A stretch of DNA of 32,000 nt from Amycolatopsis pithecellobii (GCF_009707865.1 NZ_WMBA01000048.1:1-32000); one strand, 5' to 3'. Counted from the stretch's first letter, positions 1,514-22,802 are shown. Translations and numbers: made by a program. The notes: generated from the sequence alone by a model not told the origin.

Positions 1514-1723
1514 GCCTAGACCTTTCTACCTGCACAAACGGAGAACCCGCAGAAAAAACGGTGCCGTTCAGTGCAGTTGACTGCAGCTCGACGCTGTTCA
1601 GCGCGCACCTGTGCCCCAGATTTGCCCCGCGGAAAACAGCGTGAAGACCGACCGTCGCACGGTAACTCCTTGCAATCGAACCTCTATCGATTGCTTGAGC
1701 GTGGACATGGATAGTCATTGGTG

Positions 1724-1789: not shown

Positions 1790-4558
1790 TCACGGGACCT
1801 CGTGGCCAGTGCCAGTGTTGAAGCGGTCGTCCGTACTCTTCTGAAACCGTGCATGTAGGCGGAGCAGGACTTCGGCATCGAGTGCGGCGTAGGTTTCCTG
1901 GCTGTCGGTGAGGGGGCGCCGGGTCCAGTCGCTTGCTTGCTCTCGCTTGTCGAGTTTGACGCCTAGCTCACGCGCGCAGACTTCGCGGAGGCTGTGGCCG
2001 GTAGCTGTGCTGCGGAGTTGGCGTGACGTGTCGCGGGTATCCAGCACCCCTTCCAGGGAGTAGCCATACCGGCCGAGGACGTTGCGCTCGAATGTGGCGT
2101 TGTGGATCAGCTTTATTGTTTCAGTGCTGGTGAGCAGTTGTCCGAGTGGGGCCAGGTCGGGTACCTCGAGTGCGTCGATGAGATAGGTCGCTTCGCCAGC
2201 GGCGATCTGGATTAGGCACAGAGTGCGATCCGTGAGGGTAGTTTCGACGTCGAGGCCGACGATGGGCTCGGACGTCAATGCAGCTACCGCTGCCTCGAGT
2301 TGCGGTAGCGCGCGGACCCAGATCAGCGGGCGGTCCTCTTCTCGGCGCAGGAGAGGCAGATCCGCTGGGATTTCCGCAAGCTGACCAACAGCATCCATGT
2401 CCTCGCGGGTGAAGGTGCGGACGCCGTCGGGCACGCGGGAAAGGGTGGCCTCGATCCCGGACAACCATCGCCAAGCACCGCCGATGTCGAGCAAGTAGCG
2501 CGCCACGACCTCGCGTTCAACCCATGGTGCCATCAGTGGTTGGAACTTACTGAGTCGGTAGTTTGGGAGTGATTGGGCGACTTCCGTCCAAAGTTGGTCG
2601 TTCTCCCAGAAGTCGGGTTCCGTGATTTTGGCAAGTGCGTCGAGGAAACTGCGGCGGTCGACAACGCCCTTTATCTTGATCAAGAAGTTGTCCGGGATGA
2701 CTTTCCAGCCAACGCCCACGGCTTCGAGTGCGTAGCGAAGCGTCGCGTTGATACGTCCTCCGGCGAAGGTCCACCAGCGAATCTCGCCGTCGTCGAACTC
2801 CATTCCGCCGCGCTTAGGGTTGACGATTTCTAGCATGGAAGCGCGGTGCTCGGCGAGTACCGCCCATGCCGCGTCGTCAAGGTATGGATAACGGTCGTCG
2901 CTCTGGAGCACCGACAGTATGCGCTGGCAGACGTCGAACCCGAGGAACTGTGGGAGAAATCCGCCCCACGTGGGCCGACGACCACGGGGGGCCGGTTCGA
3001 CGACCAGGCGACGATCGTTGTGCACTAGTCGCAGTGCGGTCCATGCGCGGCCGCCGAGTAGGAAGCTGCTGATGCCTTCGACGAGTCGGTCGACGAAGGC
3101 TTGGTTCAGGGAGCCAAGCGGCTGACCGCTGGCGGTTTCCACCGTGTAGGTCTGTGGGCTGGAGAAGACCGCATAGAGTTCCATGAAGTTCTTGCGGCCG
3201 AATCGGCGTTCCGCCTTCGGTCCGAGGACCAGTTGGCCGCTGGTGAGCCGTAACGCCCCGTCTCGGAGCATCCAGTTCAGCAGTCGGTCGTATTCGGCTC
3301 GGTGAATGCCTTGGAAGTCGGGTACGTGGGCCAGATGTTCCCAGGCGTCGTCGGCCGTGACCCCGCCAGTCGCCAGCGACATCGCGAGCAGTTGATGGAT
3401 AAGGACCGGCCAGCAACGTTGCTCTACCTCGACGGATTCGACCCAGCCAGTCTTGGCCAGCTCGATCACAGCGATGGCTTGCAGCATGCCCTCGGTCGTC
3501 GTGCAGAAGAACGTGGTGTTGGCCGATTGCCCTCCTCGTCGCCCTGTTCGGCCCATGCGTTGCATAAACGAACTCACAGTGTCCGGTGCCTCCGCCTGCA
3601 GGACCCGATCGAGGTCGCCGACGTCGATGCCCAGCTCCAGGGTGGAGGTGCACACGATGCAGGTGTCGCTGCCGTGGTGGAAACGCTCTTCGGCGATTTG
3701 GCGATCTTCTCGGGACACCGCGCTGTGGTGCACGAACACGGCGATTCCCGCGCGTCTCATGTATTCGGCGACGGCTTCCGTCGTAGCCCGGGATTGGCAG
3801 AAGAACAGGCTTTTCTGCCCGCTCGCGACGCGCGCCGCGTCGATGGACAACTCGGCGAGATTCTCCCGGTAGACGACTAGAAGACGTCGGCGGACGGGTT
3901 CCTTCAGCGGATCTACGATGCGTCCTGGTCGGTTCGACGTGCCTTGCAGCCAGGTTAGGATCGCTTCCGGGTTGCCCACGGTCGCGGACAGCCCCACGCG
4001 CTGAACGTCGTGCTGAGAGATTCGTGCCAGGCGTTCGAGCACACTCAACAAGTGGGCACCCCGGTCCGATCCGGCCAGCGCGTGTACCTCGTCGATGATC
4101 ACGGTCCGCAGGTCGGCGAACAGCTTATGCTCGTCCACTCGCTGGGACATCAGCATCACTTCGAGTGATTCCGGCGTCGTCATCAGAAGCTCAGCGGGCT
4201 CCTGGAGAAACTGGCGGCGGTGGTGGTCGGCGGTGTCCCCGTGCCACACGAACCGACGCAGGCCGACCATATCGGTATAGCGACCGAGTCGATCCTGCTG
4301 GTTATTCAGCAGCGCTTTGAGCGGCGCGATGTAGAGTGCACCGACGCCGTCGGGCTCGTTCTCGACCAGCTTGGACAGGGTGGGAAACATCGATGCTTCG
4401 GTCTTGCCACCCGCGGTTGGCGCCAAGATGACCGCGTTGTCGCCGGCGAGCAGTGCCTCGCCTGCCTCTTCTTGCACCGGTCGCAGGCTCGACCAACCGA
4501 GCCTGGACACGATCGCCTGCTGGAGGCGCGGTGCGAAGCGGGCAAAGACACTCACCAC
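1790..4558 (-). CDS. brxHI: BrxHI-type Lhr-like DEAD/DEAH (SF2) helicase with a C-terminal RNase D/DnaQ-like DEDDy 3'-5' exonuclease domain
   Basis: Helicase motifs: Walker A APTAGGKTEA, motif II IIDEVH, SAT, and motif VI QRMGRTGRRG, followed by an Lhr-type associated region (RWWTFAGGRINATL). The C-terminal aa 745-905 carry Exo I LDVETT, Exo II HNATFE and Exo III YAALDAE. The GTG start overlaps the brxD stop (GTGGTGA). Confidence 0.85.
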   Translation of the reverse strand: MVSVFARFAPRLQQAIVSRLGWSSLRPVQEEAGEALLAGDNAVILAPTAGGKTEASMFPTLSKLVENEPDGVGALYIAPLKALLNNQQDRLGRYTDMVGLRRFVWHGDTADHHRRQFLQEPAELLMTTPESLEVMLMSQRVDEHKLFADLRTVIIDEVHALAGSDRGAHLLSVLERLARISQHDVQRVGLSATVGNPEAILTWLQGTSNRPGRIVDPLKEPVRRRLLVVYRENLAELSIDAARVASGQKSLFFCQSRATTEAVAEYMRRAGIAVFVHHSAVSREDRQIAEERFHHGSDTCIVCTSTLELGIDVGDLDRVLQAEAPDTVSSFMQRMGRTGRRGGQSANTTFFCTTTEGMLQAIAVIELAKTGWVESVEVEQRCWPVLIHQLLAMSLATGGVTADDAWEHLAHVPDFQGIHRAEYDRLLNWMLRDGALRLTSGQLVLGPKAERRFGRKNFMELYAVFSSPQTYTVETASGQPLGSLNQAFVDRLVEGISSFLLGGRAWTALRLVHNDRRLVVEPAPRGRRPTWGGFLPQFLGFDVCQRILSVLQSDDRYPYLDDAAWAVLAEHRASMLEIVNPKRGGMEFDDGEIRWWTFAGGRINATLRYALEAVGVGWKVIPDNFLIKIKGVVDRRSFLDALAKITEPDFWENDQLWTEVAQSLPNYRLSKFQPLMAPWVEREVVARYLLDIGGAWRWLSGIEATLSRVPDGVRTFTREDMDAVGQLAEIPADLPLLRREEDRPLIWVRALPQLEAAVAALTSEPIVGLDVETTLTDRTLCLIQIAAGEATYLIDALEVPDLAPLGQLLTSTETIKLIHNATFERNVLGRYGYSLEGVLDTRDTSRQLRSTATGHSLREVCARELGVKLDKREQASDWTRRPLTDSQETYAALDAEVLLRLHARFQKSTDDRFNTGTGHEVP

Positions 4559-5874
4559 ACGTCCTCGGCAGGCACAAGCTGCTCGTGCTCGTCGAAGTCG
4601 ACGAGCGGAGCGCCGGTGAGGACATGCTGCTCTTCCGGACTGAGTTCCTTGGCCGAGAACCCATACTCGGTCATAGGCTCGTAGTCCACGTGTTCCTCGA
4701 CCAGGTCGAGCTGGGTGACGAACTCACGTAGGAACTGGCGTGGTACCACGCCGACGTCACCTTTGAACCCCATGGTCACCTCCGTTACCAACTGCTCGAC
4801 GAAAGCCGTGCTGATCTTCTGATCGAGCCGGCCACGATCCGACGTGGGGAACAGCTCGCGGAGACGAAGAGCGACCGAACGAAGCCGGTCGGCATCGAAC
4901 GGCACAAGCTCGAGCTGAGCCTGTCGCATGCTCGCGAAGCGGCCTTGTTTCAGAAAACGGATTCGGTCGTGCAAGGGTGCAAGGCCAGCGACGCCGTGCC
5001 GTGAATCGAAAAATTCCGGCGTACCGGTGAATATCCATAAAATTCCTGGATATGATCCTGCGGCGTCAGCGATCTGCCGAATCCCGTTGAGCGATTTGTG
5101 CCGCGAGTCCGAACGCATGCGAAGAATGGTCTCGGCCTCATCGATGACGATGACGAGCCCGGAGTATCCGGCAGCTTTCACGATTTCGAGCACACCGCGC
5201 AGGTAATCCAGCGCATCACGGCTCCCGATGTCGCCCTTGATGCCTGCGGCCTTCTTTGCCGACGCGGCGACGTTGCCGCTGCCGCACAGCCACGACGTCA
5301 GCGCACCAGCTTCCGCGACGTCGCCTCGTTGCTTCAGATCGAAAATGGTCTGAATAACGCGCACGAAGTCCTGCGGCGCCTGGCCACCGGTCATCGCCGC
5401 GAGGTCTTCGTCGAGGCGTTTGCGAACCTTGGCGTCGAAGGCGGGGTCCGAGTCGTCCTCTCCGGCCGCGATCAGGCTTTCCTCCACACGGCCGATCCAA
5501 CGGTCGAGGATGTCACCGAGGGCGCCGCGTGGCGCCGACGCGGTGCCGAGCTCGGTCAGCACCTTGCGGTACACGTCGTCGAAGCGGTGGAACCTGAGAT
5601 CGTTGTCGGAGACCACGACGAAACTGGTCGCGAATCCGCGAGCACGCGCGTCCAAGAGAGCAAGGCGGGCCATGAAGGTCTTGCCACAGCCATAGCCACC
5701 ACGGAGGAACTTGATGGTGCCCTCGCTATTGTTCGCAAGGTCGAGCTGCCGGTGCAGTTCTCCGCGTTGTTTCTCGATGCCGACGGCAAACGCATCGATT
5801 CCTCGTTCCGGCACCAGGCCTTTACGCAATGACTCAAAAACGTGCTCGACGCCTTTGTTGGTCAACGTGCTCAT
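4552..5874 (-). CDS. brxD: BrxD-like P-loop ATPase (DUF2791-type BREX ATP-binding protein)
   Basis: Walker A LRGGYGCGKTF and Walker B LVIVIDEAE. The size (440 aa) and the position between pglZ and the Lhr-like helicase match BrxD. Its ATG overlaps the pglZ stop (ATGA at 5871-5874). Confidence 0.75.
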   Translation of the reverse strand: MSTLTNKGVEHVFESLRKGLVPERGIDAFAVGIEKQRGELHRQLDLANNSEGTIKFLRGGYGCGKTFMARLALLDARARGFATSFVVVSDNDLRFHRFDDVYRKVLTELGTASAPRGALGDILDRWIGRVEESLIAAGEDDSDPAFDAKVRKRLDEDLAAMTGGQAPQDFVRVIQTIFDLKQRGDVAEAGALTSWLCGSGNVAASAKKAAGIKGDIGSRDALDYLRGVLEIVKAAGYSGLVIVIDEAETILRMRSDSRHKSLNGIRQIADAAGSYPGILWIFTGTPEFFDSRHGVAGLAPLHDRIRFLKQGRFASMRQAQLELVPFDADRLRSVALRLRELFPTSDRGRLDQKISTAFVEQLVTEVTMGFKGDVGVVPRQFLREFVTQLDLVEEHVDYEPMTEYGFSAKELSPEEQHVLTGAPLVDFDEHEQLVPAEDVW

Positions 5875-8798
5875 GTGCTTCCCTCGCGTACGTATCGCTT
5901 CACTCCAGCCACAATGTCGATGCGCACATCGAAAGGAGCCTTCTGGGCATATTCCTCGAACTTGATGGCAAAGCGCCGCAGGCCACGCGGGCCGCCCAGC
6001 ATCGCGGTAGCCTCATTTTCGGTCACTGTACCGTGCGCTGCCAGATGTTCGAACACTTGTCGGACACCCGATTCGGGGAATTGCTGGAGCCAGCTTGCAT
6101 TGCTCGTCGTGGTGGTTGCTGCCTGCGCGGGCGCTGCTGCCGGCATCTCCCGCGTGGCGGTAACAGCGAACCGCGCATCTGGTACGAACGGCTGCACGTT
6201 AACTTCGGCGCTCGGGTGATGAAGTTCGACGCGCACCCGCTCGTCGAGCGCGCCGGTGAGGCGGAAGAAGACCTCGAAACGTTTACCGACGGTCGCGACG
6301 ACCACGCCACCCGAGATCCGCGCGCCGCCACGAGTCTGACCGAGCTCAACGAACACGTTCTCTACATCGTGCACCCTCAACGCGAGCTCGACCTCTGCGG
6401 GGCTGCCGAAGTCCAGCGATTGGTCGCCAAGGACATCGACCTTGGCTTCGATGCAATGCATTCCGGCGACGCCCTCGCTAGCCGCGGCGGTGACGCCGTA
6501 CTGAACGCCGCTGCCGCCGGATGCCGCGCGATGCGCCACGGTCAGCACCGGGATGACCCGTTCCTGCAGACTGTTGCCACCGTGCGCGAAGCTCTTGACC
6601 ACCCGACCGGTATCGAAAACCGCGGTGGTCTCCGGGAACATCACCTGCCCGGTTGCTCCCTGATAGCCGAGGTCCGCCAGCGCGACCCTCGCCTCTCCTA
6701 CGTGATCAGCCGGCACCGGCGAGAACACAAACCGCTGGCTCGGATCGATGCGACGGCCATGGGCTTGGGCAGTTGCGCGCGTGTTGTCCAACAGTAGGAA
6801 GCCGTGGTCGCTGGTGATGACGAAGCGTCGCACACCCGCGTCGCGCAACGTTCTCCACGCGGCCCGCAGCTTCTGCATGACAACGTCGAACATCGCAGGG
6901 CCGACGCCTTTCTCACCAGCGTCGTCGATCTCTCGGCTGTGCACGACGATCAGCCGTGCTTTGGCGATGGAGCGCTTGAGCCAGGCGATATCTCGGCTGA
7001 CAACCTCGTCGAGGGGAAGCCATGGGCATGTCGCGCCGCCGACCCGGTCGTGCATGGCACGTTTGCGTGTTTCTGGGTCTCGCACGCGGAACTCGCCGGC
7101 CTGAAAGCCCTGAATGCCACCGGTATCACCGGCTAGCGAGATCTGCAGCCGACCGTTCTTCTCCACCGGCGCGAGTACATTCATGCCCACTGCGGTCACT
7201 GTCGGCAGCTCGGCGAGCCGGGGTTTGATCAGCACAGTAGTGGCCGGCGTGTCGGCTAGTTGGCGATAAAGCTCCTCGCCCATCTCGAACCGCAACGCGT
7301 CGACGACGAAGTAGGCGGTGGTGCCGGGTTCTTTGGTCAGTGGCTTGACCACCTCGTCGAAAAGCGTCCGCTGCTGATACGAGGCGCCTGGGAGGAAACC
7401 GTGGGTCTTGCAGAGCGTGTTGAACTCCCGTGCCCAGCCGTCAGCCCAGACGCGCCAGGCGTGACGCATCCCGTCGAGACGGCTCCGTAGGGTTTCGAAC
7501 TCGGGCAGAAGCGGGTAGAGCAGCGCCATCCGAAGCTGCTCAAGCTGCCGATGCGCCTGATCTACGGCTGCGCCACGTTCGACGTAGGTGGCAACAGCAG
7601 CTTCGATGCCATTGTGCATGCCTTTGGCAATGCCGATGCGGTCGCCCGCCCGCGCGATCGCCTGACCAAGCCGGGCTGCAGCATGGACGAGCTGCCAAGC
7701 GGACTGCCGTGCCGGATCGTCCCGGAGCCAGAACGACGCACCGGCTGGTTCAGGTGCCGTCCGCGGATCAGCCCACTCGGCCGCCTGGTCGAAGTCCGCG
7801 CGTTCGAGCGCGACCAACGCGGCCTTGAGGACCTTGTCCTCCTCGAACCGGAACGTGTCGATCTTGCCGAGGTCTTCGGCGCGGGCCGCCTCGACCTCGT
7901 CGGCCAGCAACGCCTCGGTCTCGTCGGCCGTTCGCCGATAGAAGTCCGGGTATCGCTCCCTAAGGTGCGCGGCCACCGTCCGGCAGGTCTCGATGATCTG
8001 ACTCGGCAGGTTCACCGCAGGACCGAGCAGCGCCCCGGCTGGTTCGTGTTTCGGGTCGTGCACGTATTCCACGCACAGCGCCCAGCTCGCCGCCGCGAAC
8101 GCCACGTCCTCAGCGCGCGGCGGCGTTGGCGGCAGCGTGATGTCACGCCAGTTTTCCGGGAGACCGACCCATGCGGCGAGGCGTTCCCACAGGGCGTTCT
8201 CGTCGTCGAGCTGGCCGATGCAGGTGGCAACGAACCCGCCGGTAAGCAGGTCGTCGAATACGGCAGTCGGTTTCATAGCACGTAGCTGAGCCGGGAGACC
8301 CCCGCCTGTGTCGTTCAGGAGAGCGCTCAGCCAGGCGTCCGCGCCGGCGAGCGTCAGGTCCGGCTGCGCGGTGAACGCCACGATCTGGTCCGGGCGCACC
8401 CGGCTGGCCGCGGCGTCGGTGATCAGCGTGTGCAATGCCTTCCGGTAGCGCGTGCCCGCCGCGTACAGTTCGAACAGCGGCGTCCGACGGACGGTCTCCT
8501 CGGTGAACCCGGGCAGATGAACGACCAACGGCGGCTTTTCGGTCCCGGCGGCGACCCCGTCCAACGCCAGCATCAGCGCCAAGTGGCTCCCACGAAACGC
8601 ATGCACCTCATACGGCAGAGCCCCGGCGGAGCGCAACGCTTGGAGCCGATCAACGAACTCGCTGTACTGCCCAGCCTGGTCCAGCCACATGACCAAGCCC
8701 TGCTTACGCACCCACGAACGCAGGTCTTTTTCCAGCGTCGCGGATACCGGGCCGTCGATTCCCGCCGTCGAAGGCGGGGATTCCGCTGCCGTCGTCAT
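5871..8798 (-). CDS. pglZ: BREX PglZ-domain alkaline-phosphatase-superfamily protein (975 aa from the ATG at 8798)
   Basis: PglZ signatures YFVVDALRFEMGEELY and FVITSDHGFLLL. The ATG at 8798 forms an ATGA overlap with the pglX stop at 8795. The 51 extra N-terminal codons in the track ORF (to 8951) are R-rich and lie inside pglX. Confidence 0.88.
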   Translation of the reverse strand: MTTAAESPPSTAGIDGPVSATLEKDLRSWVRKQGLVMWLDQAGQYSEFVDRLQALRSAGALPYEVHAFRGSHLALMLALDGVAAGTEKPPLVVHLPGFTEETVRRTPLFELYAAGTRYRKALHTLITDAAASRVRPDQIVAFTAQPDLTLAGADAWLSALLNDTGGGLPAQLRAMKPTAVFDDLLTGGFVATCIGQLDDENALWERLAAWVGLPENWRDITLPPTPPRAEDVAFAAASWALCVEYVHDPKHEPAGALLGPAVNLPSQIIETCRTVAAHLRERYPDFYRRTADETEALLADEVEAARAEDLGKIDTFRFEEDKVLKAALVALERADFDQAAEWADPRTAPEPAGASFWLRDDPARQSAWQLVHAAARLGQAIARAGDRIGIAKGMHNGIEAAVATYVERGAAVDQAHRQLEQLRMALLYPLLPEFETLRSRLDGMRHAWRVWADGWAREFNTLCKTHGFLPGASYQQRTLFDEVVKPLTKEPGTTAYFVVDALRFEMGEELYRQLADTPATTVLIKPRLAELPTVTAVGMNVLAPVEKNGRLQISLAGDTGGIQGFQAGEFRVRDPETRKRAMHDRVGGATCPWLPLDEVVSRDIAWLKRSIAKARLIVVHSREIDDAGEKGVGPAMFDVVMQKLRAAWRTLRDAGVRRFVITSDHGFLLLDNTRATAQAHGRRIDPSQRFVFSPVPADHVGEARVALADLGYQGATGQVMFPETTAVFDTGRVVKSFAHGGNSLQERVIPVLTVAHRAASGGSGVQYGVTAAASEGVAGMHCIEAKVDVLGDQSLDFGSPAEVELALRVHDVENVFVELGQTRGGARISGGVVVATVGKRFEVFFRLTGALDERVRVELHHPSAEVNVQPFVPDARFAVTATREMPAAAPAQAATTTTSNASWLQQFPESGVRQVFEHLAAHGTVTENEATAMLGGPRGLRRFAIKFEEYAQKAPFDVRIDIVAGVKRYVREGST

Positions 8799-11700
8799 GC
8801 GTCGTCCTCCGCGCTTTTCCCGAAGTCCTCGTCCGCGAAGAAGATCAGCGGGACGAGCTCGGCGAGGCGTTTCTTGCGGGCTTGCGCCTTCTGCGGATGT
8901 TTCGTCTCGAACGCCGCGCGGGCAGCGGGCTCGTCGGGCGCGACGATGCACAGCTCAGCGCCCTGCTTCTCGGCCAGTCGCAGCTCCATGTCCCACAACT
9001 CCTCGGCGTGCGCCGACCACAGACCCGCTTCGAGAAGACGCAGTTCATCGATGAGTTTCCGGTTCTTACCCCGCCCCATCCGCCGGATCGCCTCGTTCTC
9101 GATGGCCGCGAGGGCGACCTCGGGCTGGTCACGCAGGAACGTTTCGCGGTGCGGGTCGTCGCCGCGGTCACCAATGTCGCGTCCTCCTGGATGGTAGGGC
9201 GGCTCCTCGATCCGGAAATCGGGACCGATCTCGTCCTGCAGCCGCAGCTCCCATGCCCACGCGCGCGCCTGGTGGTAACGCCAGAAACAGCCGTGCGCGA
9301 CGCCAAGGCTGGGGTCGTTCTGGCATTTCTTGTCGACCCTGGTCGGCCAATACCGCACCGCCAGATGGGACCAGTCGTAGTCCTTGCGACCACTCGCGAC
9401 GGCCAGCTCTTTCCACCACTTCTTCGGGTCTTTCCACTGCGGGTCGAGCAGCGGCCACAACGCGGCGGAGTTGATCATCACCCCGTCGTCGAGATCAGGC
9501 GCATACCGTGCGTCCCGCTCACGGGCCGGACACTTGTCGTCGGTCGGCGGCGCACCCCGATCCGCACACTGCTCGACATCGGCGATGAAGGCCCGCAACT
9601 CGTCCCGTGCCTTGGCCATCCGAACGTATTGCCGCTCGGCGGCAGTGGCGGCCTTTTTGTCCGCGCCGTCCCGGGCTGCGCGGACATCGGCAAGCTCGCC
9701 TTCCAATCGCTTCAGCGTCGGCATGAGATGGTCGGCGAGCAGCACCCGCAACGTCTGCTCATTCATCTGGTGAATATTAACCCACGCCACGAAGGTCTTG
9801 CCCGACGAGGACAGCGGCCAATGAATAGGCCGGTTTTCATACATGCCTTTATGGACGTCCTTGAAGAAATCAAGCGCAAGCCAGTCCCGCAGCCCGCGCC
9901 TCGTCCCGATCGCCGGACCGTACTCGGCCCAAGCAGTATGCAACGGCGCCGCGGCGGACTCCCCAAGACTGTCCCGCCAATCCGTGGCGTCCAACGTCCG
10001 ATCAAGAAACAAGATCCCACCCGGCAACACATGGGACAGGTCGGCAGTCGTGGGATTCAACACGCCCTTTCCCTCGGAATCAAAACGTCCAAGAGTCACG
10101 CCGAGCGCGAAACTAGCGTGGTCGACGGCGGGTTCAGGATCAAGCTCTTCAACATATTCTGGCAATGGCGTACCCGGTGAACGGTCGATGGCGACTTGGG
10201 CCCACTCTTGGACATGACGCCAGGCCGAAGGGCCAGGGCGACGAAACTCGACAGAGGGTTCACGGTGAGATTCATGCGTGACGAATGCCGCCTCGACCTG
10301 AGCGAAGATGGCATCAGCGTCCGGCATGGGGAACAGTGGAAGTCGGTTTACGTCACCAACAAGGAAATGCACTCCCGGATTTAGCGACGAAAGAATAAAT
10401 CGAGCAAAAGATGAGTTCAACAGGCAGACGATAGTTGCCAGATTGTCCTCGCCGGGAAAAACCGATGCGCCCATATGTCCGAAGACCGAACGATACCGAT
10501 GGGCGCGTGCGCTGAACCCGCTGCCGATGAGAGCGAAGGCAACACCCTTATTGAAGTAGAGACCCTCGTTCTTAACTGTCCGGGAGTACGATCCGTACAA
10601 CATCTCGTTGAAAACTTTTGCTTCCATGCCAAAGTTAGAGAATCGGACTACATCCCTCGCGTCTTCGAACCACGCCCGCCCTTCTGCTCCTTTAATGTAC
10701 AAAGCCCACTCTTCGGATGGGCAAGGATTCAGGTCGCCAAGCCCCAGATACACCCGAGACGGCAATAACTCCCATTGCATGCGCAGAAAGCGGGCGTTGT
10801 TTTGCGTGGACATCCCATTACGCACAGGGGCGACGTTTGCCAACTTTGCATAGTGTGTGTACACGTTAATAATGTCGTTGGCCCACCAATAGACAAGAGG
10901 CCAATCTGGAACGACCTTCAATTTGGCGGGGTCGAAGGTGCATCTCCCGTTGTGACAGAGAACGGCCGCACGCTTTCTGTTTAGTGCCGAAATAGACCGA
11001 TCGCGTGGTTCGTCCCGAGGTGTTGGAACTAGACCTGCGGCCTGCACGCCCTTCGTTATTCCCCGCAACAGGCAGTACATTGCGATAGTATTATCGCGCA
11101 TTTGCTCAAAGGAAGACCAGAGAAGATCGACCACGGACTGGACAGAATGTTCTTCCAGTATGCTCCCTCGAAATTCAGCATACTGATTAAGGTACATCCA
11201 CCCATTCATGGATACTTGCGCAGTATATCCCCCATTGCGCACCAGTTCCAAACCTCGTAGGAGAAATGCTGCATACAGGTCGGCTTTGCCAAGTGGGTAC
11301 ATTGTCTCTACATACGCCGAGTTCGCCATTTTGCTGGTGCCCTGGTATGGCGGGTTGGCCATAACCAGGTCGTACGTTCCTTCGCGGACAAGGCGGATGA
11401 AGCGGACGCCTGCAGTGAGTTGTTCGCCGCGTAGCCGGAGGCCTAGGTCGTCGCCGTTGGTGTGTCTGGTTAGGAAGGTTTCCAGGCGGTCGAGCAGGGT
11501 GGCCTTGGCTTCGGCACGGCCGATGGTGGTGCGTTTGGGCTGTGGCGTGCCGTCGTCGAACAATGACCCCTGCTCGCTGATCGCCCGGCCGAACGCGGCT
11601 TCGTGTTGGGCCAGTGCCTTGTCCACCGCGGCGTCGACCTTGAGCAGGCTGCCTAGATGGTCGGCGCCGCGGAGGGCGTGGATCAGGGTGTCGGTCAGCT

Positions 11701-12737
11701 CGCCGGGTAGGCCGGTCTCGCGTTCGACCTCGCGGCGCAGTTCGACTAGTGCCGGGTCGTCGTCGGCGAGGCCGGCCAGACGCAGGTTCGACGCGACCAG
11801 GTTCAACCGTTCAGGTTGGGCGCCAGGGCAAATTTGTTGGGCCTTGAGCCAGAGGGCCGCCGCCGCGATCTGGATCGCCCGTGGATCAAGATCGATGCCG
11901 TGCAGGTTGTGCGACAAGATGCGTTCGATGATCGCCCGGTCGGACCAGCGCTCCGCGTCGGCTTCGCCCCGGTGCCGTGCTTCCTCGCGATAAAGGGGAA
12001 CAAGCAGGTCCAGCGCCACGACGAGGAAATGGCCTGAGCCTGCTGCTGGGTCGATCAGCTTCAGGTCACGCACGGTGTCGGGTGCTTGTGCCACGGCGTC
12101 GTCGGGGATCGGTTGCGGCAGGTAGTAGGCCCAGTGGCGTTCGGCTTCGGTATGCAGCGGCATCAGGTCGGTCAGCTCGACTTCGCCGGACCCGCGCTTG
12201 GCCCGCCACTCCGTGCGCCGCTCTTCCAACCGGTCCAGCGTGCCGTCAGCCTGGACTTCCGGGGTCCAGCCGTGTTTGCGGCACATGGCGAGCCACATGG
12301 GTCCGAGGCTGTTCTGCAGCCAGTCCACCATATAGCGCTCGGTGAACATCTGGGTTTTGCTGGCGATCTCGTGCGGCTCCACCTTGCCGCCGCCATTGAG
12401 CTTGTCGTCGAGGGCTTCACGTTCGGGGTCATTCCAGTACTGGTAGACCCAGCCGAGGGTCATGTCGTCGGTCCAGCAACTGTCCAGCGCATCGTCATTG
12501 AGCGCGTCAACCACGTGCCGGAGCGTCGACGCCGGGACTGGAATTAGATCAGCGATACCCGCAGGCCCGTAGAGACCAGGCAGTTCGATGGCGAGGTCTT
12601 CGAACGTGAGGCGCAGCAGGAACGCGTAGCCCTCGGTCTCGTCGGCGCGCACCAGGTCTTTGGCGAGGTCGCGGAAGTCTGTGTAGCCGCGGCTTTCCCA
12701 GCCGCCGGTCAGCACGGCGGGCGCCCGTAACGGCTTA
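8795..12737 (-). pseudogene. pglX: BREX PglX N6-adenine DNA methyltransferase, main body (1313 codons), cut off from its 5' end by IS insertions
   Basis: AdoMet motif LIDPAAGSGHFLV and catalytic motif MANPPYQG (NPPY = 11345-11356). PglX-type C-terminus (HWPLSSSGKTF..., YAPDLDDGVMINSAALWPLL, DYDWSHLAVRYWPTRVDKKC). The frame stays open upstream of the GTG at 12715 right up to the IS junction, and it continues in frame with the fragment at 15022-15344 once the IS DNA is removed. Confidence 0.88.
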
Positions 12738-12738
12738 G

Positions 12739-14120
12739 TACTGCAACGACACTTCGAGATGTTGTCGGCGGCGGTAGTGGCTGGTTCGGGCTCGGGCTTG
12801 GCTGCTTCGTCGCCATCGTGACCAGTGCAGGGCGTGCTGGATTGTGTGGCGAATTGGCGTGGTGACGCGGTTGAGTAGTTTGCGGATTTCGTTGGATGTT
12901 AGCGGTATCAGGCCGGGCGTGGAGCCCCTTTTTTCGCGGCGTCCCGGGTGATCACGAGAAACGCCGCGGCAGCCATCGAAAGGGTGATATGCCGGTACCA
13001 GGCTTCGTATCTGCGGGCCTGGTAGTGGTCGAGTCCGGTTTCGTTCTTCGCGGTTTGGAAGCTTTCTTCGATCGCCCAGCGGCTTCCGGCAACACGCACC
13101 AGTTCTGGCAAATCGGTTTCGGCAGGGCCGAAGCAAATGTAGTAGGAAATCTCGGTCGGGTCGCTGATCGAGCGGCGAGCCAGCAGCCAATGCCCGGCCT
13201 CGGGGCAACGCAGGGGCCGGATGTCGACCGCGGCCCAGTCGTAGATCCGCTGGCCGTGGGCGCCATCGCCGCAGGACAGACGCTGCCAGATAGCCGGGTC
13301 GATCTCGGCGATGACGGCGTGGGCGCGCCGCTGCCGCAGATCCATGGAAATCACCATCTGCGACTTGGGGACCGCGAGCACGTGTGCGATGTCCTGCGCT
13401 TCCAGCCAGAGCCGCAGCCGTCCGACCTGGCCGTAGGCTTCATCGGCGGTGAACCACGCAAACGGAATATTCGCCGCCAGTGCACGTTCCACCATCCGCT
13501 GCGCCAGCTCCGGCTTGGTCGCGAAACCGACATCGTCGGGAATGCCGGCGGCAGCGCACCGGTCACGATCGGCGATCCAGTCTTTCGGCAGATACAACTC
13601 CCGATCGATCAACGCCCGGCCACGGTCCGACGCATACGCCAAGAACACCCCGATCTGGGAATTCTCGATCCGCCCGGCCGTGCCCGAATACTGGCGTGCC
13701 ACGCCAGCGGATTTTATGCCCTTCTTCACGAAGCCGGTCTCGTCCGCGATCAAGACTCCGCGTTCGGCGTCGCCGAGAACCTCGACCACCGCGCCCCGCA
13801 CGTCGTCACGTACCCCATCCGCGTCCCAGGCATAGAAGTTCAGCAGCCGCTGCATACCCTGCGGGCCGGCCTCACCGGCCATCTCCGCCAGCGTCCAACC
13901 GTTCTTCCGCTCGACCTCGGCCAGCAGTCCCCGCAGGTAGGACACCATCTGCCGGCGCGGCTCGACCCGCGAAAACCGCGTCGCGAACCGCCCCGCGAAC
14001 TCAGCGAACCGCGCAGACCAGCCCGTCACCATCTCCAACACACAAGATCAACTACACTATGGACAGCGCTGAGCCTAGCCGACACACCCAGCCAACACGT
14101 AACAAAGTGTCGTTGCAGTA
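12739..14120 (-). mobile_element. IS701-family insertion sequence (1382 bp) inside pglX
   Basis: 16-bp terminal inverted repeats TACTGCAACGACACTT (12739-12754 and the reverse complement of 14105-14120). Flanked by a direct TTAG at 12735-12738 and 14121-14124. Contains a single DDE transposase ORF. Confidence 0.85.
12908..14041 (-). CDS. IS701-family DDE transposase (377 aa)
   Basis: Motifs typical of IS701/ISRso17-type transposases: LIADETGFVKKG, ARQYSGTAGRIENSQIG, FTADEAYG, RWAIEESFQTAKNETGLDHYQ. Confidence 0.85.
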   Translation of the reverse strand: MLEMVTGWSARFAEFAGRFATRFSRVEPRRQMVSYLRGLLAEVERKNGWTLAEMAGEAGPQGMQRLLNFYAWDADGVRDDVRGAVVEVLGDAERGVLIADETGFVKKGIKSAGVARQYSGTAGRIENSQIGVFLAYASDRGRALIDRELYLPKDWIADRDRCAAAGIPDDVGFATKPELAQRMVERALAANIPFAWFTADEAYGQVGRLRLWLEAQDIAHVLAVPKSQMVISMDLRQRRAHAVIAEIDPAIWQRLSCGDGAHGQRIYDWAAVDIRPLRCPEAGHWLLARRSISDPTEISYYICFGPAETDLPELVRVAGSRWAIEESFQTAKNETGLDHYQARRYEAWYRHITLSMAAAAFLVITRDAAKKGAPRPA

Positions 14121-14123
14121 TTA

Positions 14124-15021
14124 GAGGTCCTAACAGAATGATCTTGGGTGTGGTTTGATCTTGCCGGAGTGGTGATCGTCTGGCGGGAGGTTGGTGTGGC
14201 CCAGCGCAGGCCGTGGGAGGTCGAGGATGGGCTGTGGGAGCTGATCGAGCCGTTGCTGCCCAAGGTCGAGCGGCGTTTCCGCAACCCTGGCCGCAGGCGG
14301 CTGGATGACCGCAAAGCGTTGTGCGGGATCCTGTTCGTGCTGTACACGGGCATTCCGTGGGAGTTTCTGCCGCAGGAGATGGGATACGGCTCGGGGATGA
14401 CCTGTTGGCGGCGGCTGCGCGACTGGCACGATGCGCAGGTGTGGCAGCGTCTGCACGAGCTGCTGCTGGCCAAGCTGAATGCCGCTGGGCTGATCGACTG
14501 GTCGCGGGCCGCGGTGGACGGGTCGCACGTTCGCGCGTTAAAGGGGGCCCGAAAACCGGTCCCAGTCCGGTCGATCGGGCCAGGACGGGCTCGAAGCATC
14601 ATGTGATCACCGAGGGCGGCGGCCTCCCGTTGGCGGTGACGCTGACCGGCGGCAACCGTCACGATGTCACCCAACTGCTCCCGCTGGTCGAGTCGATTCC
14701 GCCTGTCCGGGGACGACGTGGGCGGCCCCGCCGTCGCCCTGACGAGATCTACGCCGACCGCGCCTACGACTCCAACAAGCACCGAGACCTGGTGCGCGCG
14801 AAGGGGATCGAGCCCCGGTTCGCCCGCAAGGGCACCGAGCACGGTTCCGGGCTGGGCCTGAACCGCTGGGTCGTCGAACAATGCTTCGCGTTGCTGCACT
14901 GGTTCCGGCGGCTGCGCTCCGGTGGGAAATCCGCGACGACATCCACGAAGCCTTCCTCAGCATCGGATGCAGCATCATCTGCTGGCGCCGACTCAAGATC
15001 AACTCATTGTGTTAGGACCTC
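14124..15021 (+). mobile_element. IS5-family (IS427-group-like) insertion sequence (898 bp) inside pglX, abutting the IS701 element
   Basis: Inverted repeats GAGGTCCTAACAGAATGA (14124-14141) and the reverse complement of 15004-15021 (GAGGTCCTAACACAATGA) match at 17 of 18 positions. Flanked by TTA at 14121-14123 and 15022-15024. Confidence 0.85.
14196..15015 (+). pseudogene. IS5/IS427-type transposase: orfA/orfB joined by a -1 frameshift, plus a likely additional frameshift near the 3' end
   Basis: orfA reads RRPWEVEDGLWELIEPLLP...DGSHVRALKG. It shifts -1 at the slippery TTAAAGGGGG (14538-14547) into GPKTGPSPVDRARTGSKHHV...DRAYDS...NRWVVEQCFALLHWFRRLR. The expected tail RWEIRDDIHEAFLSIGCSIICWRRLKINSLC* (stop 15013-15015, inside the IR) is in yet another frame from about 14917. 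Confidence 0.7.
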
Positions 15022-15344
<323 letters not shown>

Positions 15345-15709
15345 TGGTCGAAGGACCGGATCCTCGCCGCCGTCAAGCAGGCCGACACACAGCCGGTGAC
15401 AACCGGACTGGCACCTGCGGTGCCGGCGTTGACCCCACGCGAACTCGATCTGGTGCGCGAACTGGACTCCGGGTTTTCCTACCAGGAGATCGCCAGGCAA
15501 CTCGGACTGACCACCGAGACGGTGCGCACCTACTCAAAGTCGCTCTACACCAAGCTGGATGCGCACTCGCGCGGCGAAGCCGTCTTCCGGGCACGGCTAC
15601 AGGGTCTGCTTTAGCGAACCCCCACAAATGTGGCTGTCGGTCACACTCCAGGAAGTACACCCTGGATGACCGCCGCGGAAATGCCGCAAGTCCACCCCAA
15701 AGGAGTGTC

Positions 15710-21446: not shown

Positions 21447-22651
21447 AACGCACGCCCTCGGGGCGACTTCAGCCATTCCGTGGCCATCGCCAGTAATGCG
21501 GCCTCGTTGGGAACCGCGAGGCTCAGGCCGGTCGCGTCCTCCACTGCCTTCAGCCGGTTCCGGATGGTGTTGCGATGCCGGTAGGTCTGCTCGGCCACCG
21601 CTGCCACCGATCCGAGTTCGAGAAAACTGCACAGCGTTTCGATGATGCTGTCGCACTCACGGAGTTTCATCAACGGAGTAAGGACCTCCCCGGCCATGAG
21701 GCCCGCGAGTTCCTCGTTGCCCGACATGATGGCGCCGACCCAATGGGACTTGATGGGGCGGATACCGGACTCGACGCTGCTCCGCATCGCGGCGCGAGCC
21801 AGCCGTACTCCGGCGGCGGTGTTCCCGAGCCCGGTGATTTCCGCGGTCCCGCAACGCCAGTCGTCCAGTGGCCGGAGCATGCGGTGAATGGCGCGACCGG
21901 GTTGACGTCCGCTGTTCACGATTCCCAGTAACTCGTCGCCGAGATATCCGAAATGAAAGGGGAGGCTGGCCTGCTGGAGCGCGTTGCGACATTTCGTGAG
22001 GGCGTGATGCTGAATCGGCACTCCGGCGGCCACGACGACGGTGAAGCTGCCGTGCGCCGCCATGCCCAGAGCGGCCGAAGCCTCGGCGACGACAGCGTCG
22101 TCGTGTTCTCCCTCCAGGATCAGGCGCTCGAACGCACGCCTGCGGATCTCGAAGCGGTGACTGTCCAAATGGGCCTGCGTACGCCGGTATGCGTCGACGA
22201 CTTCGATGTTGTTGGCATCGATCGCTTCCCAGGCCACCAGAAGGCCATCGAGAAAATTGTGTCCGTCGGCAAGGCCCCGGCTGCGTCCCTCCTCGATGAT
22301 CGCCTCCCACACGGTGTGGAGGTCCAATTGAAACGAACGAACTACCGCGGGTAGCGGAAAGCCTTGTTCGGCTCGCTGCCGGCCGACGTCTGCCGTGGCT
22401 TGCGCGACTTCGGAGGGCACCGCTTCGCCCGCGAGCCGGGTGAGTGCCAGCCGGAGTGTCCTACGCATGCCCGCCAGTTTCTGCCCCGGCTCGGTTTCGA
22501 TCATCCCCGCATAAGCGGGCTCCTCCCGATCGAGGCGGGCTTGAGCAGTGACGGCCAGTTCGTCAAGGCGCTCGGTGAGCAGCATTTTGGCGATCGAGCG
22601 GACCGCCTCGTCTTGACGGCCTCGGCTCCAGTCGTCGGCTGATGTCCTCAT
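21404..22651 (-). CDS. PucR/CdaR-family transcriptional regulator
   Basis: C-terminal PucR HTH (AVAEQTYRHRNTIRNRLKAVEDATGLSL). ATG at 22651 has GAGGGGTG upstream; the track start at 22678 is 9 codons longer. The 3' end overlaps the convergent ROK gene by 43 nt. Confidence 0.8.
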   Translation of the reverse strand: MRTSADDWSRGRQDEAVRSIAKMLLTERLDELAVTAQARLDREEPAYAGMIETEPGQKLAGMRRTLRLALTRLAGEAVPSEVAQATADVGRQRAEQGFPLPAVVRSFQLDLHTVWEAIIEEGRSRGLADGHNFLDGLLVAWEAIDANNIEVVDAYRRTQAHLDSHRFEIRRRAFERLILEGEHDDAVVAEASAALGMAAHGSFTVVVAAGVPIQHHALTKCRNALQQASLPFHFGYLGDELLGIVNSGRQPGRAIHRMLRPLDDWRCGTAEITGLGNTAAGVRLARAAMRSSVESGIRPIKSHWVGAIMSGNEELAGLMAGEVLTPLMKLRECDSIIETLCSFLELGSVAAVAEQTYRHRNTIRNRLKAVEDATGLSLAVPNEAALLAMATEWLKSPRGRAFYERYGPASPSASA

Positions 22652-22690
22652 GACCACACCCCTCGTCCGTGGGCCCACGATCTGTGCGGA

Positions 22691-22706
22691 TTGTGCATGC
22701 GCACAA
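22691..22706. promoter_or_regulatory. Candidate operator palindrome between pucR and the permease gene
   Basis: TTGTGC-ATGC-GCACAA, with a further TGTGCG half-site at 22683-22688, in the 150-bp divergent intergenic region. Confidence 0.3.
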
Positions 22707-22802
22707 TAATAGGCGTGTCATCGCAGGTCAAAGCTCCATTGACCCTTCCTGGTCGGCGCTGATTGACTAGTCGAAATCCACCCGTGAAGAGACGGTGATC
22801 AC

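What the first reader, a model, noticed from the sequence alone, without database searches (positions are those of the whole stretch)
12735..15024. pglX inactivated by two abutting IS elements; excision in silico restores one long ORF and reveals the insertion order
Deleting 12735-15021 joins ...RLLEAPGPSG (the 15022-15344 fragment) to KPLRAPAVLTGGWESRGY... (the 12737-8795 body) in frame. This gives about 1420 codons if the ATG at 15344 is the start. Every junction base is explained if the IS5/IS427-like element inserted first at cggc|TTA|cctgag with a 3-bp TTA duplication. The IS701-family element would then have inserted into the TTAG formed by that duplication plus the first G of the IS5-like left IR, duplicating TTAG (12735-12738 and 14121-14124). 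The reverse order leaves an unexplained base. In BREX, PglX is needed for both modification and restriction, so the system is probably off. The IS701 transposase gene points the same way as pglX. Read-through into the GTG-initiated 1306-codon remnant and into pglZ-brxD-brxHI therefore remains possible.
Basis: seen in the sequence. Interest (0 to 1): 0.7.

Follow-up and report, generated by a model that had tools for sequence, protein, structure and literature searches.

The report
Two insertion sequences split decayed pglX

Summary
An IS701-family element (12739-14120) and an IS5-family element (14124-15021) sit side by side in pglX. Deleting 12735-15021 gives a 1420-codon ORF that aligns without a gap at the junction to 24 intact PglX proteins.

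The proposed insertion order, IS5-like first and IS701-like second, is supported. Thirteen of 18 two-ended relatives of the IS701-type element carry identical 4-bp YTAR direct repeats. The native site (CGGC-TTA-CCTG) has no YTAR. TTAG exists only after the IS5-like element adds its terminal G.

The interpretation needs three corrections:
- The system is BREX type 6, not a Pgl/type 2-like set.
- brxE, brxA, brxB and brxC are absent upstream. Homology to PglX starts only at 15287, so the ATG at 15344 is fortuitous and about 20 native codons are missing. Removing the IS elements would not restore the system.
- The IS5-like transposase carries a 1-bp deletion (14917/14918).

RefSeq annotates the remnant as an intact 1321-aa PglX that starts inside the IS.

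A side result: relatives of the IS701-type element in other actinomycete genomes repeatedly sit at the tip of IS5-family elements.

The finding itself is ordinary.

The parts
1790..4558 (-). brxHI (922 aa): Lhr-like DEAD/DEAH helicase with a C-terminal 3'-5' exonuclease domain. The ORF is intact.
   Evidence: PADLOC model PDLC02501 BrxHI matches residues 2-907 (1104 bits). Pfam finds DEAD, Helicase_C, WH_Lhr and DNA_pol_A_exo1. It is 76% identical to BrxHI of locus L001.
4552..5874 (-). brxD (440 aa) ATPase. The ORF is intact. Its start overlaps the pglZ stop (ATGA).
   Evidence: NF033438 BREX_BrxD scores 528 bits against a cut-off of 350. PADLOC BrxD also matches. The overlap is shown.
5871..8798 (-). 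pglZ (BREX-6 type). The likely start is the ATG at 8798, which overlaps the pglX stop (ATGA).
   Evidence: NF033443 BREX_PglZ_6 scores 1240.7 bits against a cut-off of 400 and covers model positions 1-957 of 958. The overlap is shown.
8795..12737 (-). pglX 3' body, equal to codons 108-1420 of the restored gene. It contains the methyltransferase motifs and includes the 1306-codon GTG ORF 8795..12715.
   Evidence: NF033455 BREX_6_MTaseX scores 2055 bits on the restored protein. tblastn maps L001 PglX residues 113-1434 to 12736-8801. P0001 is 100% identical.
12735..12738 (.). Left copy of the 4-bp TTAG target duplication made by IS-A. It consists of the TTA of the IS-B duplication plus a copy of the first G of IS-B.
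   Evidence: Read directly from the sequence. Thirteen of 18 two-ended relatives carry identical 4-bp YTAR direct repeats.
12739..14120 (-). IS-A: IS701-family insertion sequence, 1382 bp, with 16-bp perfect terminal inverted repeats TACTGCAACGACACTT.
   Evidence: It is 96.3% identical, without gaps, to metagenomic copies L002-L004. It is 84-86% identical to full-length copies in Amycolatopsis genomes and a Kribbella MAG.
12908..14041 (-). IS-A transposase gene (377 aa from the GTG; relatives are called at 374 aa). It is intact and points the same way as pglX.
   Evidence: NF033540 scores 449.5 bits and covers model positions 1-363 of 363. Pfam DDE_5 also matches. P0121 is 95% identical.
14121..14124 (.). 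Right copy of the IS-A duplication (TTAG). Bases 14121-14123 are also the left TTA duplication of IS-B, and 14124 is the first base of IS-B.
14124..15021 (+). IS-B: IS5-family (IS427-like) insertion sequence, 898 bp, with inverted repeats GAGGTCCTAACA[G/C]AATGA. Two overlapping ORFs are joined by a -1 frameshift near 14540 (AAAGGGGG).
   Evidence: The repaired transposase matches NF033580 over positions 2-258 of 258 (231 bits). Relatives are 881-903 bp and are flanked by TTA or TAA.
14917..14918 (+). Site of a 1-bp deletion in the IS-B transposase gene (CTGCGC^TCC). It puts the last ~33 codons (RWEIRDDIHEAFL...) out of frame.
   Evidence: Two plasmid relatives read CTGCG[C/G]ATCCGC here. All 17 metagenomic relatives keep the extra base (16 read ATCCGCTG, one ACCCGCTG). 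The as-encoded protein stops matching NF033580 at position 235 of 258. tblastn switches frame between 14917 and 14923.
15022..15024 (.). Right copy of the 3-bp TTA duplication made by IS-B.
   Evidence: The restored gene is colinear with homologues only if exactly one TTA is kept.
15022..15287 (-). pglX 5' fragment that is homologous to PglX (residues ~20-107 of the restored protein). As it stands it reads on into the IS-B inverted repeat and ends ...PSGKRS* at the stop codon 15012-15014.
   Evidence: tblastn maps L001 PglX residues 23-113 to 15287-15021. A DNA local alignment with L001 starts at 15287. The stop is shown.
15288..15344 (-). Nineteen codons with a fortuitous ATG that do not resemble PglX. 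The rearrangement or deletion breakpoint lies at about 15287/15288. The native first ~20 codons and brxE-brxA-brxB-brxC are missing.
   Evidence: All 24 homologues share MTSDAKRALSTTIRSLRARL, whereas the window has MPGDNDGRTVDHPRFAVGE. No BrxE, BrxA, BrxB, BrxC or integrase hit was found anywhere in the window. Canonical gene order comes from L001.
15273..15614 (+). LuxR-type HTH ORF (113 aa from the GTG; alternative ATG at 15309) that runs away from pglX and overlaps the breakpoint. Whether it is 5'-truncated is unresolved.
   Evidence: Pfam GerE matches residues 52-105. Only self hits were found in the clustered database. Only the HTH part has relatives: the best is a 214-aa GAF-LuxR protein, and ~110-aa stand-alone forms also exist.

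Best explanation
This is a decaying BREX type 6 defence locus in Amycolatopsis pithecellobii RM579. Only pglX-pglZ-brxD-brxHI remain.

Three lesions are shown:
1. A rearrangement or deletion with its breakpoint at about 15287/15288. It removed brxE, brxA, brxB, brxC and the first ~20 codons of pglX, and joined the rest to a LuxR-type gene region.
2. An IS5-family (IS427-like) element, IS-B, transposed into the TTA between codons 107 and 108 of pglX and duplicated TTA.
3. An IS701-family element, IS-A, then transposed into the tetranucleotide TTAG formed by that TTA plus the terminal G of the IS-B inverted repeat, and duplicated TTAG. It therefore abuts IS-B exactly.

IS-B also carries a 1-bp deletion in its transposase gene. 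The timing of that deletion relative to the other events is unknown.

Inferred: IS-A relatives insert at YTAR, and the native pglX site had no YTAR, so IS-B created the target for IS-A. The locus cannot methylate or restrict. PglX is split and lacks its native start, and the ATPase BrxC and BrxB are not encoded here. Precise loss of both IS elements would not restore function. The timing of lesion 1 relative to lesions 2 and 3 is unknown.
For: Identity of the system: NF033455 (PglX-6, 2055 bits), NF033443 (PglZ-6), NF033438 (BrxD) and PADLOC BrxHI all match. The source organism comes from P0001, P0241 and P0242.

Canonical type 6 order HTH-brxE-brxA-brxB-brxC-pglX-pglZ-brxD-brxHI is seen in L001. 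Type 6 is described as type-1-like with a helicase and BrxE added (PMC12839542).

Missing genes and truncated 5' end.

IS anatomy. Junction colinearity.

Insertion order:
- 38 of 39 distinct flanks of IS-A-type ends begin with YTAR.
- 13 of 18 two-ended copies have identical 4-bp repeats. These include the non-palindromic TTAG/TTAG and CTAA/CTAA pairs.
- The IS701 family makes 'exactly four bp' duplications (PMC2266710).
- IS-B relatives are flanked by TTA/TTA or TAA/TAA.
- An IS-A-first order with a 4-bp duplication predicts TTA-G after IS-B. The sequence observed is TTA-C.

IS-B decay.

Gene requirements: in E. coli BREX-1, deleting brxB, brxC, brxX or brxZ abolishes both methylation and defence (PMC6326788).
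Against: The window is only 32 kb of a 63-kb draft contig. brxE-brxC could therefore lie elsewhere in the genome, through translocation or inversion rather than loss.

No experimental data exist for BREX type 6. The gene requirements are extrapolated from type 1.

pglZ, brxD, brxHI and the 1313-codon pglX body contain no stop codon or frameshift. Either the lesions are recent or these genes are still under selection.

No allele with an empty site or with only one IS was found, so the insertion order is deduced from junction logic and family behaviour, not observed.

Five of 18 IS-A relatives have non-identical YTAR flanks.
Confidence: 0.85

Rival explanations
1. An otherwise complete BREX system has been switched off solely by the two IS insertions in pglX. 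It could be switched back on by excision, or partly rescued by read-through from the IS701 transposase gene into the GTG-initiated remnant and pglZ-brxD-brxHI.
For: The IS insertions and the in-frame restoration are real. The IS-A transposase gene points the same way as pglX, and no terminator-like site was found on the minus strand between 12908 and 12739. The downstream genes are intact and linked by ATGA overlaps.
Against: brxE, brxA, brxB and brxC are absent from the 17 kb upstream and from the rest of the window. The native N-terminus and start codon of pglX are gone. The pglX frame has no ATG, GTG or TTG between the TAA at 12899-12901 and the GTG at 12715, and that GTG lacks an evident Shine-Dalgarno sequence. 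The remnant would lack residues 1-107. DDE transposons rarely excise precisely, and here two precise excisions would be needed.
Confidence: 0.07
2. Reverse order: the IS701-family element inserted first, and the IS5-like element then landed next to it.
For: In other genomes with the same architecture (L036, L040, L042, L069, L073, L108) the far flank of the IS5-like element reads TTAG or CTAG, so either order is formally possible there.
Against: In the window the native site is CGGC-TTA-CCTG and contains no YTAR. An IS-A-first order with the family's 4-bp duplication requires TTA-G after IS-B, but the sequence is TTA-C. A 3-bp duplication with an extra G at the end of IS-A contradicts the conserved TACTGC... 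terminus, which is preceded by either G or A in 39 distinct flanks. None of 64 metagenomic IS-B-type ends abuts an IS-A-type end.
Confidence: 0.02
3. The truncated PglX (lacking residues 1-107) together with PglZ, BrxD and BrxHI still works as a reduced defence or DNA-processing module, which would explain why these four ORFs are intact.
For: There are no stops or frameshifts in about 11 kb of coding sequence. The methyltransferase motifs (DPAAGSGHF, NPPY) are retained. BrxD and BrxHI co-occur as a linked pair in type 2 systems (PMC12839542).
Against: No promoter or good start codon is evident. BrxC is part of the conserved tripartite core of all BREX types (PMC12839542). BrxX alone does not methylate in BREX-1 (PMC6326788). 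Intact ORFs are equally well explained by recent lesions: both IS elements have perfect target duplications and near-perfect inverted repeats.
Confidence: 0.05
4. The apparent 5' truncation and the missing brx genes are an assembly or scaffolding artefact of the draft genome, or brxE-brxC were moved rather than lost.
For: The source is a draft assembly with a 63,327-bp contig. No reads or second assembly could be examined. Exact look-ups of window proteins in the assembly index failed.
Against: The contig runs continuously through the breakpoint into ordinary chromosomal genes, including a fumarylacetoacetate (FAA) hydrolase and an aminotransferase. The switch from 0% to about 75% similarity to PglX is abrupt and falls within an ORF. 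Misjoins in short-read assemblies usually occur at repeats, and none is present at 15287.
Confidence: 0.08

Closest known systems
BREX type 6 (Goldfarb et al. 2015 classification; NCBIfam BREX-6 models)
   Same: PglX, PglZ, BrxD and BrxHI match the type 6 or BREX-specific models end to end. They lie in the canonical order pglX-pglZ-brxD-brxHI with overlapping stop and start codons, as in L001.
   Different: brxE, brxA, brxB and brxC are missing. pglX lacks its first ~20 codons and is split by two IS elements. This is a remnant, not a complete system.
IS701 family of insertion sequences (De Palmenaer et al. 2008, PMC2266710)
   Same: It has a single DDE transposase matching NF033540 and DDE_5. 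It has terminal inverted repeats containing the family's YACT signature (TACT...). Target duplication is exactly 4 bp.
   Different: At 1382 bp it is slightly below the 1400-1550 bp range quoted for the family. This clade shows a strict YTAR target and often sits at the tips of IS5-family elements. I found no description of that pattern, but ISfinder could not be consulted.
IS5 family, IS427-like group
   Same: The element is about 0.9 kb. A DUF4096 ORF and a DDE_Tnp_1 ORF are joined by a -1 frameshift. The inverted repeats start with GAG. Duplications are 2-3 bp at TTA, TAA or TTAA. NF033580 matches end to end after repair.
   Different: This copy has a 1-bp deletion that removes the conserved C-terminal ~23 model positions. 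Assignment to the IS427 group rests on my recollection of ISfinder's group features, not on a test done here.
Insertion sequences that home on the ends of other mobile elements (IS4321/IS5075 of the IS1111/IS110 group, which target the inverted repeats of Tn21-family transposons)
   Same: One IS is repeatedly found at a fixed position relative to the terminal inverted repeat of another mobile element. The analogy is from my own knowledge. These IS names appear in PMC11187229.
   Different: Those elements use DEDD transposases, with target choice guided by RNA or DNA pairing. IS-A has a DDE transposase, and the only target requirement shown here is the tetranucleotide YTAR.
Solved PglX/BrxX structures (Salmonella PglX 8C45/8Q56; E. 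coli BrxX 9EWZ)
   Same: The methyltransferase core and C-terminal region align (E = 2e-50 and 2e-48).
   Different: These are type 1 proteins. The N-terminal ~180 residues of the type 6 protein, which include the insertion site at residue 107, do not align by sequence.

Membership tests
BREX type 6 | Type-6-specific PglX methyltransferase | tested here: met
   NF033455 scores 2055 bits against a cut-off of 900 on the restored protein. PADLOC PDLC02523 scores 2171 bits. However, the gene is split and truncated at its 5' end.
BREX type 6 | Type-6 PglZ, plus BrxD ATPase and BrxHI helicase downstream | tested here: met
   NF033443 scores 1240.7 bits. NF033438 scores 528 bits. PADLOC BrxHI scores 1104 bits.
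BREX type 6 | BrxC ATPase (part of the core of all BREX types), BrxA, BrxB and the type-6-specific BrxE, all upstream of pglX | tested here: not met
   tblastn with the L001 BrxE, BrxA, BrxB and BrxC proteins finds nothing in the window. The upstream ORFs are LuxR-type and metabolic genes. The rest of the genome could not be searched.
BREX type 2 (Pgl) | Type-2 PglX, PglW kinase and PglY | tested here: not met
   NF033451 (BREX-2 PglX) scores 33 bits against a cut-off of 400. No kinase or PglY-like ORF is present in the window.
IS701 family | IS701-type DDE transposase | tested here: met
   NF033540 scores 449.5 bits against a cut-off of 150 and covers model positions 1-363 of 363. Pfam DDE_5 has E = 2.5e-49.
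IS701 family | Terminal inverted repeats and a target duplication of exactly 4 bp | tested here: met
   The inverted repeats are perfect over 16 bp, and TTAG/TTAG flanks the element. Thirteen of 18 relatives have identical 4-bp YTAR repeats. The literature reports the same.
IS5 family (IS427-like) | IS5-type DDE transposase (DUF4096 + DDE_Tnp_1) made from two frames | tested here: met
   After repair NF033580 scores 231 bits against a cut-off of 110 and covers positions 2-258 of 258.
IS5 family (IS427-like) | Short (2-4 bp) duplication at T(T/A)A and inverted repeats starting with GA/GG | tested here: met
   The window copy is flanked by TTA/TTA. Relatives show TTA/TTA, TAA/TAA, or TTA...TAA. 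The group definition itself is recalled from ISfinder, not checked here.
Autonomous (transposition-competent) IS, applied to IS-B | Uninterrupted transposase reading frame apart from the programmed frameshift | tested here: not met
   There is a 1-bp deletion at 14917/14918 relative to 19 relatives, and the match to the model ends at position 235 of 258. Loss of activity is inferred, not shown.

The most novel reading that the evidence does not exclude
The clade of IS701-family elements with TACTGCAACGACACTT ends preferentially integrates at the outer tip of IS5-family elements. It uses as its YTAR target the tetranucleotide formed by the IS5 element's own YTA duplication plus its terminal G. 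In other words, a DDE-type IS homes on other ISs.

In the sample taken here:
- 8 of 19 copies abut an IS5-family element that was verified by its transposase and its paired inverted repeats. These are the window, L036, L040, L042, L069, L073, L092 and L108. They involve four different IS5-type partners and both IS-A ends.
- 5-6 more copies on short contigs have flanks that look like IS5-type inverted repeats.

YTAR occurs about 1.5 times per kb, so chance adjacency should be around 1% or less. In the window this preference would explain why the two elements abut.
Probability: 0.55. Interest if true: 0.5.

Novelty: new member of a known kind. Interest (0 to 1): 0.3.

Why it matters
For the genome itself, a gene that RefSeq lists as an intact 'BREX-6 system adenine-specific DNA-methyltransferase PglX' (1321 aa, start codon ATC inside an IS end) is really the 3' part of a gene that is both split and truncated. 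The locus should be scored as a non-functional BREX remnant in defence-system censuses.

For BREX biology it adds one more example of pglX being where such systems break. It does not bear on mechanism.

The more useful by-product concerns transposons. The junction logic, backed by about 40 flanks from other genomes, gives a clean YTAR/4-bp target rule for an actinomycete IS701 clade. It also suggests that this clade accumulates at the tips of IS5-family elements. If that is a true preference, it would be a simple, testable case of one IS creating the landing site for another. It would also help explain nested IS clusters in large actinomycete genomes.

Tried and rejected
1. Exact-protein look-ups of the window's IS701 transposase, BrxD, P0001 and P0002 in the assembly index all returned nothing. 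The source genome and close strains could therefore not be inspected for empty-site or single-IS alleles.
2. A metagenome scan for the restored junction 20-mer CCTCAGGTAAGCCGTTACGG found no uninterrupted allele.
3. Plasmid searches with both IS sequences found only relatives at 80% identity or less. These served for the IS-B alignment but not for IS-A ends.
4. I tried to decide whether the LuxR-type ORF at the breakpoint is a truncated regulator. The clustered-database search gave only self hits. The exhaustive HMMER search showed that only the HTH part has relatives, in both long and short proteins. This stays unresolved.
5. Alternative IS boundaries were considered and rejected. Extending the IS-A inverted repeat to TAGTAC.../...GTATTA, or the IS-B repeat to AGAGG.../...CCTCT (pairs I6 and I9), leaves no matching direct repeats and breaks the frame of the restored gene.
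6. A 2-bp 'TA' duplication model for IS-A was considered, because five relatives have non-identical YTAR flanks. It was rejected. The outer bases co-vary as direct repeats in 13 of 18 copies, including copies within one genome. The mismatched cases are better explained by recombination between copies.
7. The idea that the two ISs arrived together as one composite unit was rejected. The outer ends belong to two unrelated transposase systems, and each element has its own complete duplication.
8. The promoter and terminator scan of 12.5-15.7 kb found nothing informative, and the sigma-70 consensus is of limited value in actinomycetes.
9. The tRNA-Ala next to brxHI was considered as an island attachment site. 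The island lies on the 5' side of the tRNA, so this was not pursued.

Full report
**What is in the sequence**

The window comes from Amycolatopsis pithecellobii (strain RM579). The 3' part of the gene is 100% identical to a RefSeq protein of that species, and the neighbouring LuxR-type ORF matches locus tag GKO32_26075.

On the minus strand lie four genes:
- pglX, 15344..8795, interrupted;
- pglZ, 8798..5871;
- brxD, 5874..4552;
- brxHI, 4558..1790.

Curated models assign them to BREX type 6. NF033455 (PglX-6) scores 2055 bits and NF033443 (PglZ-6) scores 1241 bits. NF033438 (BrxD) and the PADLOC BrxHI model also match. The BREX-2 PglX model scores only 33 bits against a cut-off of 400. Stop and start codons overlap (ATGA) at pglX/pglZ and at pglZ/brxD.

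**The two insertion sequences**

IS-A spans 12739-14120 (1382 bp). It has perfect 16-bp terminal inverted repeats, TACTGCAACGACACTT. Its intact 377-aa transposase on the minus strand matches the IS701-family model over its whole length.

IS-B spans 14124-15021 (898 bp). Its inverted repeats are GAGGTCCTAACA[G/C]AATGA. It has two plus-strand ORFs (DUF4096 and DDE_Tnp_1) typical of IS5-family elements that use a -1 frameshift.

TTAG flanks IS-A (12735-12738 and 14121-14124). TTA flanks IS-B (14121-14123 and 15022-15024).

**The restoration test**

Deleting 12735-15021 removes 2287 bp, which equals 1382 + 4 + 898 + 3. The result is a 1420-codon ORF.

Aligned with 24 intact BREX-6 PglX proteins (64-79% identity), the junction reads EAPGPSG-[K/E/Q]-PLRAPAV with no residue missing or added. 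tblastn with an intact PglX from a metagenomic BREX-6 locus maps residues 23-113 to 15287-15021 and residues 113-1434 to 12736-8801.

**The insertion order**

To learn how IS-A behaves, I collected relatives from two sources: three metagenomic contigs that encode a 95%-identical transposase, and a scan of species-representative genomes for the terminal 16-mer. After chance matches were removed by similarity to IS-A, the results were as follows:
- 38 of 39 distinct flanks start with YTAR directly next to TACTGC.
- 13 of 18 two-ended copies have identical 4-bp direct repeats. These include the non-palindromic pairs TTAG/TTAG and CTAA/CTAA, and different repeats on different copies within one genome.

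This fits the published description of the IS701 family, whose members make duplications of exactly four base pairs (PMC2266710).

IS-B relatives from plasmids and metagenomes are flanked by TTA/TTA, TAA/TAA, or TTA...TAA.

The native pglX site must have been CGGC-TTA-CCTG, because exactly one TTA keeps the frame. That sequence contains no YTAR. After IS-B inserts and duplicates TTA, the left junction reads TTA|G, which is a YTAR. IS-A duplicates exactly those four bases. If IS-A had come first with a 4-bp duplication, the base after the far TTA would have to be G, but it is C. A 3-bp duplication with an extra G on IS-A contradicts the conserved terminus. The order IS-B then IS-A is the only one that fits. 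It remains a deduction, because no intermediate allele was found.

First, the locus is incomplete. In a canonical type 6 locus (L001) the order is HTH-brxE-brxA-brxB-brxC-pglX-pglZ-brxD-brxHI (PMC12839542). In the window nothing upstream of pglX resembles these genes. Instead there is a LuxR-type ORF, then a fumarylacetoacetate hydrolase and other metabolic genes on the opposite strand.

Second, the 5' end of pglX is not native. All 24 homologues, from actinomycetes to Thiocystis and Geomonas, begin MTSDAKRALSTTIRSLRARL-LEDLH. The window has MPGDNDGRTVDHPRFAVGE-LDDLH. DNA and protein homology both start at 15287. The ATG at 15344 is therefore fortuitous, and a breakpoint lies at about 15287/15288.

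Whether the lost segment was deleted or moved elsewhere in the genome cannot be told from 32 kb. Whether the LuxR-type ORF is itself truncated also stays open.

Third, IS-B is damaged. Compared with two plasmid copies and 17 metagenomic copies, it lacks one base between 14917 and 14918. After in-silico repair the transposase matches the IS5 model over 2-258 of 258 positions. As encoded, the match stops at position 235.

**Functional reading**

In E. coli BREX-1, deleting brxB, brxC, brxX (pglX) or brxZ abolishes both methylation and defence, and BrxX alone does not methylate (PMC6326788). By extrapolation, this locus is inactive for several independent reasons, and losing the IS elements would not revive it.

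Read-through from IS-A is geometrically possible, because the orientation is the same and no terminator-like site was detected. But the pglX frame entering from IS-A is closed by a TAA at 12899-12901. It has no ATG, GTG or TTG before the GTG at 12715, and that GTG has no evident ribosome-binding site. The product would also lack residues 1-107.

The remaining ~11 kb of coding sequence is intact, and both IS elements have perfect duplications. Both facts point to recent events.

RefSeq nevertheless annotates a 1321-aa 'PglX' that begins at an ATC codon (12760) inside the IS-A inverted repeat.

**Side result**

In other genomes the same architecture recurs. An IS-A-type element sits exactly at the outer tip of an IS5-family element in the following loci:
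- A. nalaikhensis (L036, L069), next to a 943-bp partner;
- Amycolatopsis sp. CA-161197, at L042 and L108 (an 875-bp partner, with the IS-A-type element at opposite ends) and at L092 (a 943-bp partner);
- Nocardiopsis sp. CNT-189 (L040, L073), next to a ~1070-bp partner.

Each partner was verified by its paired inverted repeats and by an IS5-type transposase found with tblastn. Five or six further copies on short contigs have flanks that look like IS5-type inverted repeats.

The window has 49 YTAR sites in 32 kb, so such adjacency should be rare by chance. Conversely, none of 64 metagenomic IS-B-type ends abuts an IS-A-type end.

In those other loci the order of arrival is ambiguous. A shared liking for the same rare sites, or selection against insertions elsewhere, cannot be excluded. 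I therefore rate true homing on IS5 tips as somewhat more likely than not, not as shown. I found no paper describing it, but ISfinder could not be consulted.

**Verdict**

But the event is an ordinary one: IS disruption within a defence island that was already, or is also, truncated. Interest is low to moderate. What lasting value it has lies in the annotation correction and the target-site rule for this IS701 clade.

Noticed in passing
window 12715-12760 (minus strand): RefSeq annotates the pglX remnant as an intact 1321-aa 'BREX-6 system adenine-specific DNA-methyltransferase PglX' (P0001, MSKCRCSTKPLRAPAV...). Its start is an ATC codon at 12760, inside the terminal inverted repeat of IS-A, so its first eight codons are IS sequence.
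   Followed up: yes
L036, L069 (A. nalaikhensis); L042, L092, L108 (Amycolatopsis sp. CA-161197); L040, L073 (Nocardiopsis sp. CNT-189): Relatives of IS-A sit exactly at the outer tip of IS5-family elements of 875, 943 or ~1070 bp, at either end and in either orientation, with YTAG or CTAR at the junction. This is far more often than the density of YTAR sites would predict.
   Followed up: partly
window 14917/14918: A 1-bp deletion in the IS-B transposase gene shifts the conserved C-terminus (RWEIRDDIHEAFL...) out of frame. The aberrant ORF runs through the right inverted repeat to 15061.
   Followed up: yes
L127-L185 (metagenomic IS-B relatives): Complete copies show three flank patterns: TTA/TTA, TAA/TAA, and TTA...TAA. 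The last pattern fits a 2-bp TA duplication within TTAA. The same kind of element therefore seems to make both 2-bp and 3-bp duplications.
   Followed up: partly
window 10001-11000: GC content drops to 54%, against about 64% elsewhere. This stretch encodes PglX residues ~690-1020, the part that is least conserved among homologues and probably determines target recognition. Most YTAR sites in pglX lie in or near it.
   Followed up: no
window 1466-1535 (minus strand): A tRNA-Ala(GGC) gene lies about 250 bp beyond the brxHI stop codon. Small ORFs with no family match (603-1220, 120-497) follow it. This may be the edge of the island.
   Followed up: no
L096:327-3205 (Amycolatopsis sp. cmx-4-68): An IS-A-type copy measures 2879 bp between its ends because about 1.5 kb of other DNA is inserted in it (blastn shows two pieces). 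It still has CTAG/CTAG flanks.
   Followed up: no
L003 (metagenome contig, 1693 bp): An IS-A-type copy is flanked on both sides by IS5-like inverted-repeat tips of two different kinds (GGGCGTGTCTGA and GAGGTCAGTTCAGAATGAG), with non-identical flanks CTAG and TTAG. The contig also begins with an inverted copy of the IS end, so it may be an assembly chimera.
   Followed up: no
L001:1-4338 and 21550-22718: The intact BREX-6 locus used for comparison lies next to an integrase, a Replic_Relax protein and an HTH_17 gene on one side, and an IS3-type transposase on the other. BREX-6 there appears to ride on an integrative element.
   Followed up: no
window 24351-27269 (plus strand): A 972-aa ORF fuses an APH-type phosphotransferase domain to a class-III aminotransferase domain. 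It sits in a cluster with a PucR-type regulator, an amino-acid permease, an aldehyde dehydrogenase and an amine oxidase.
   Followed up: no
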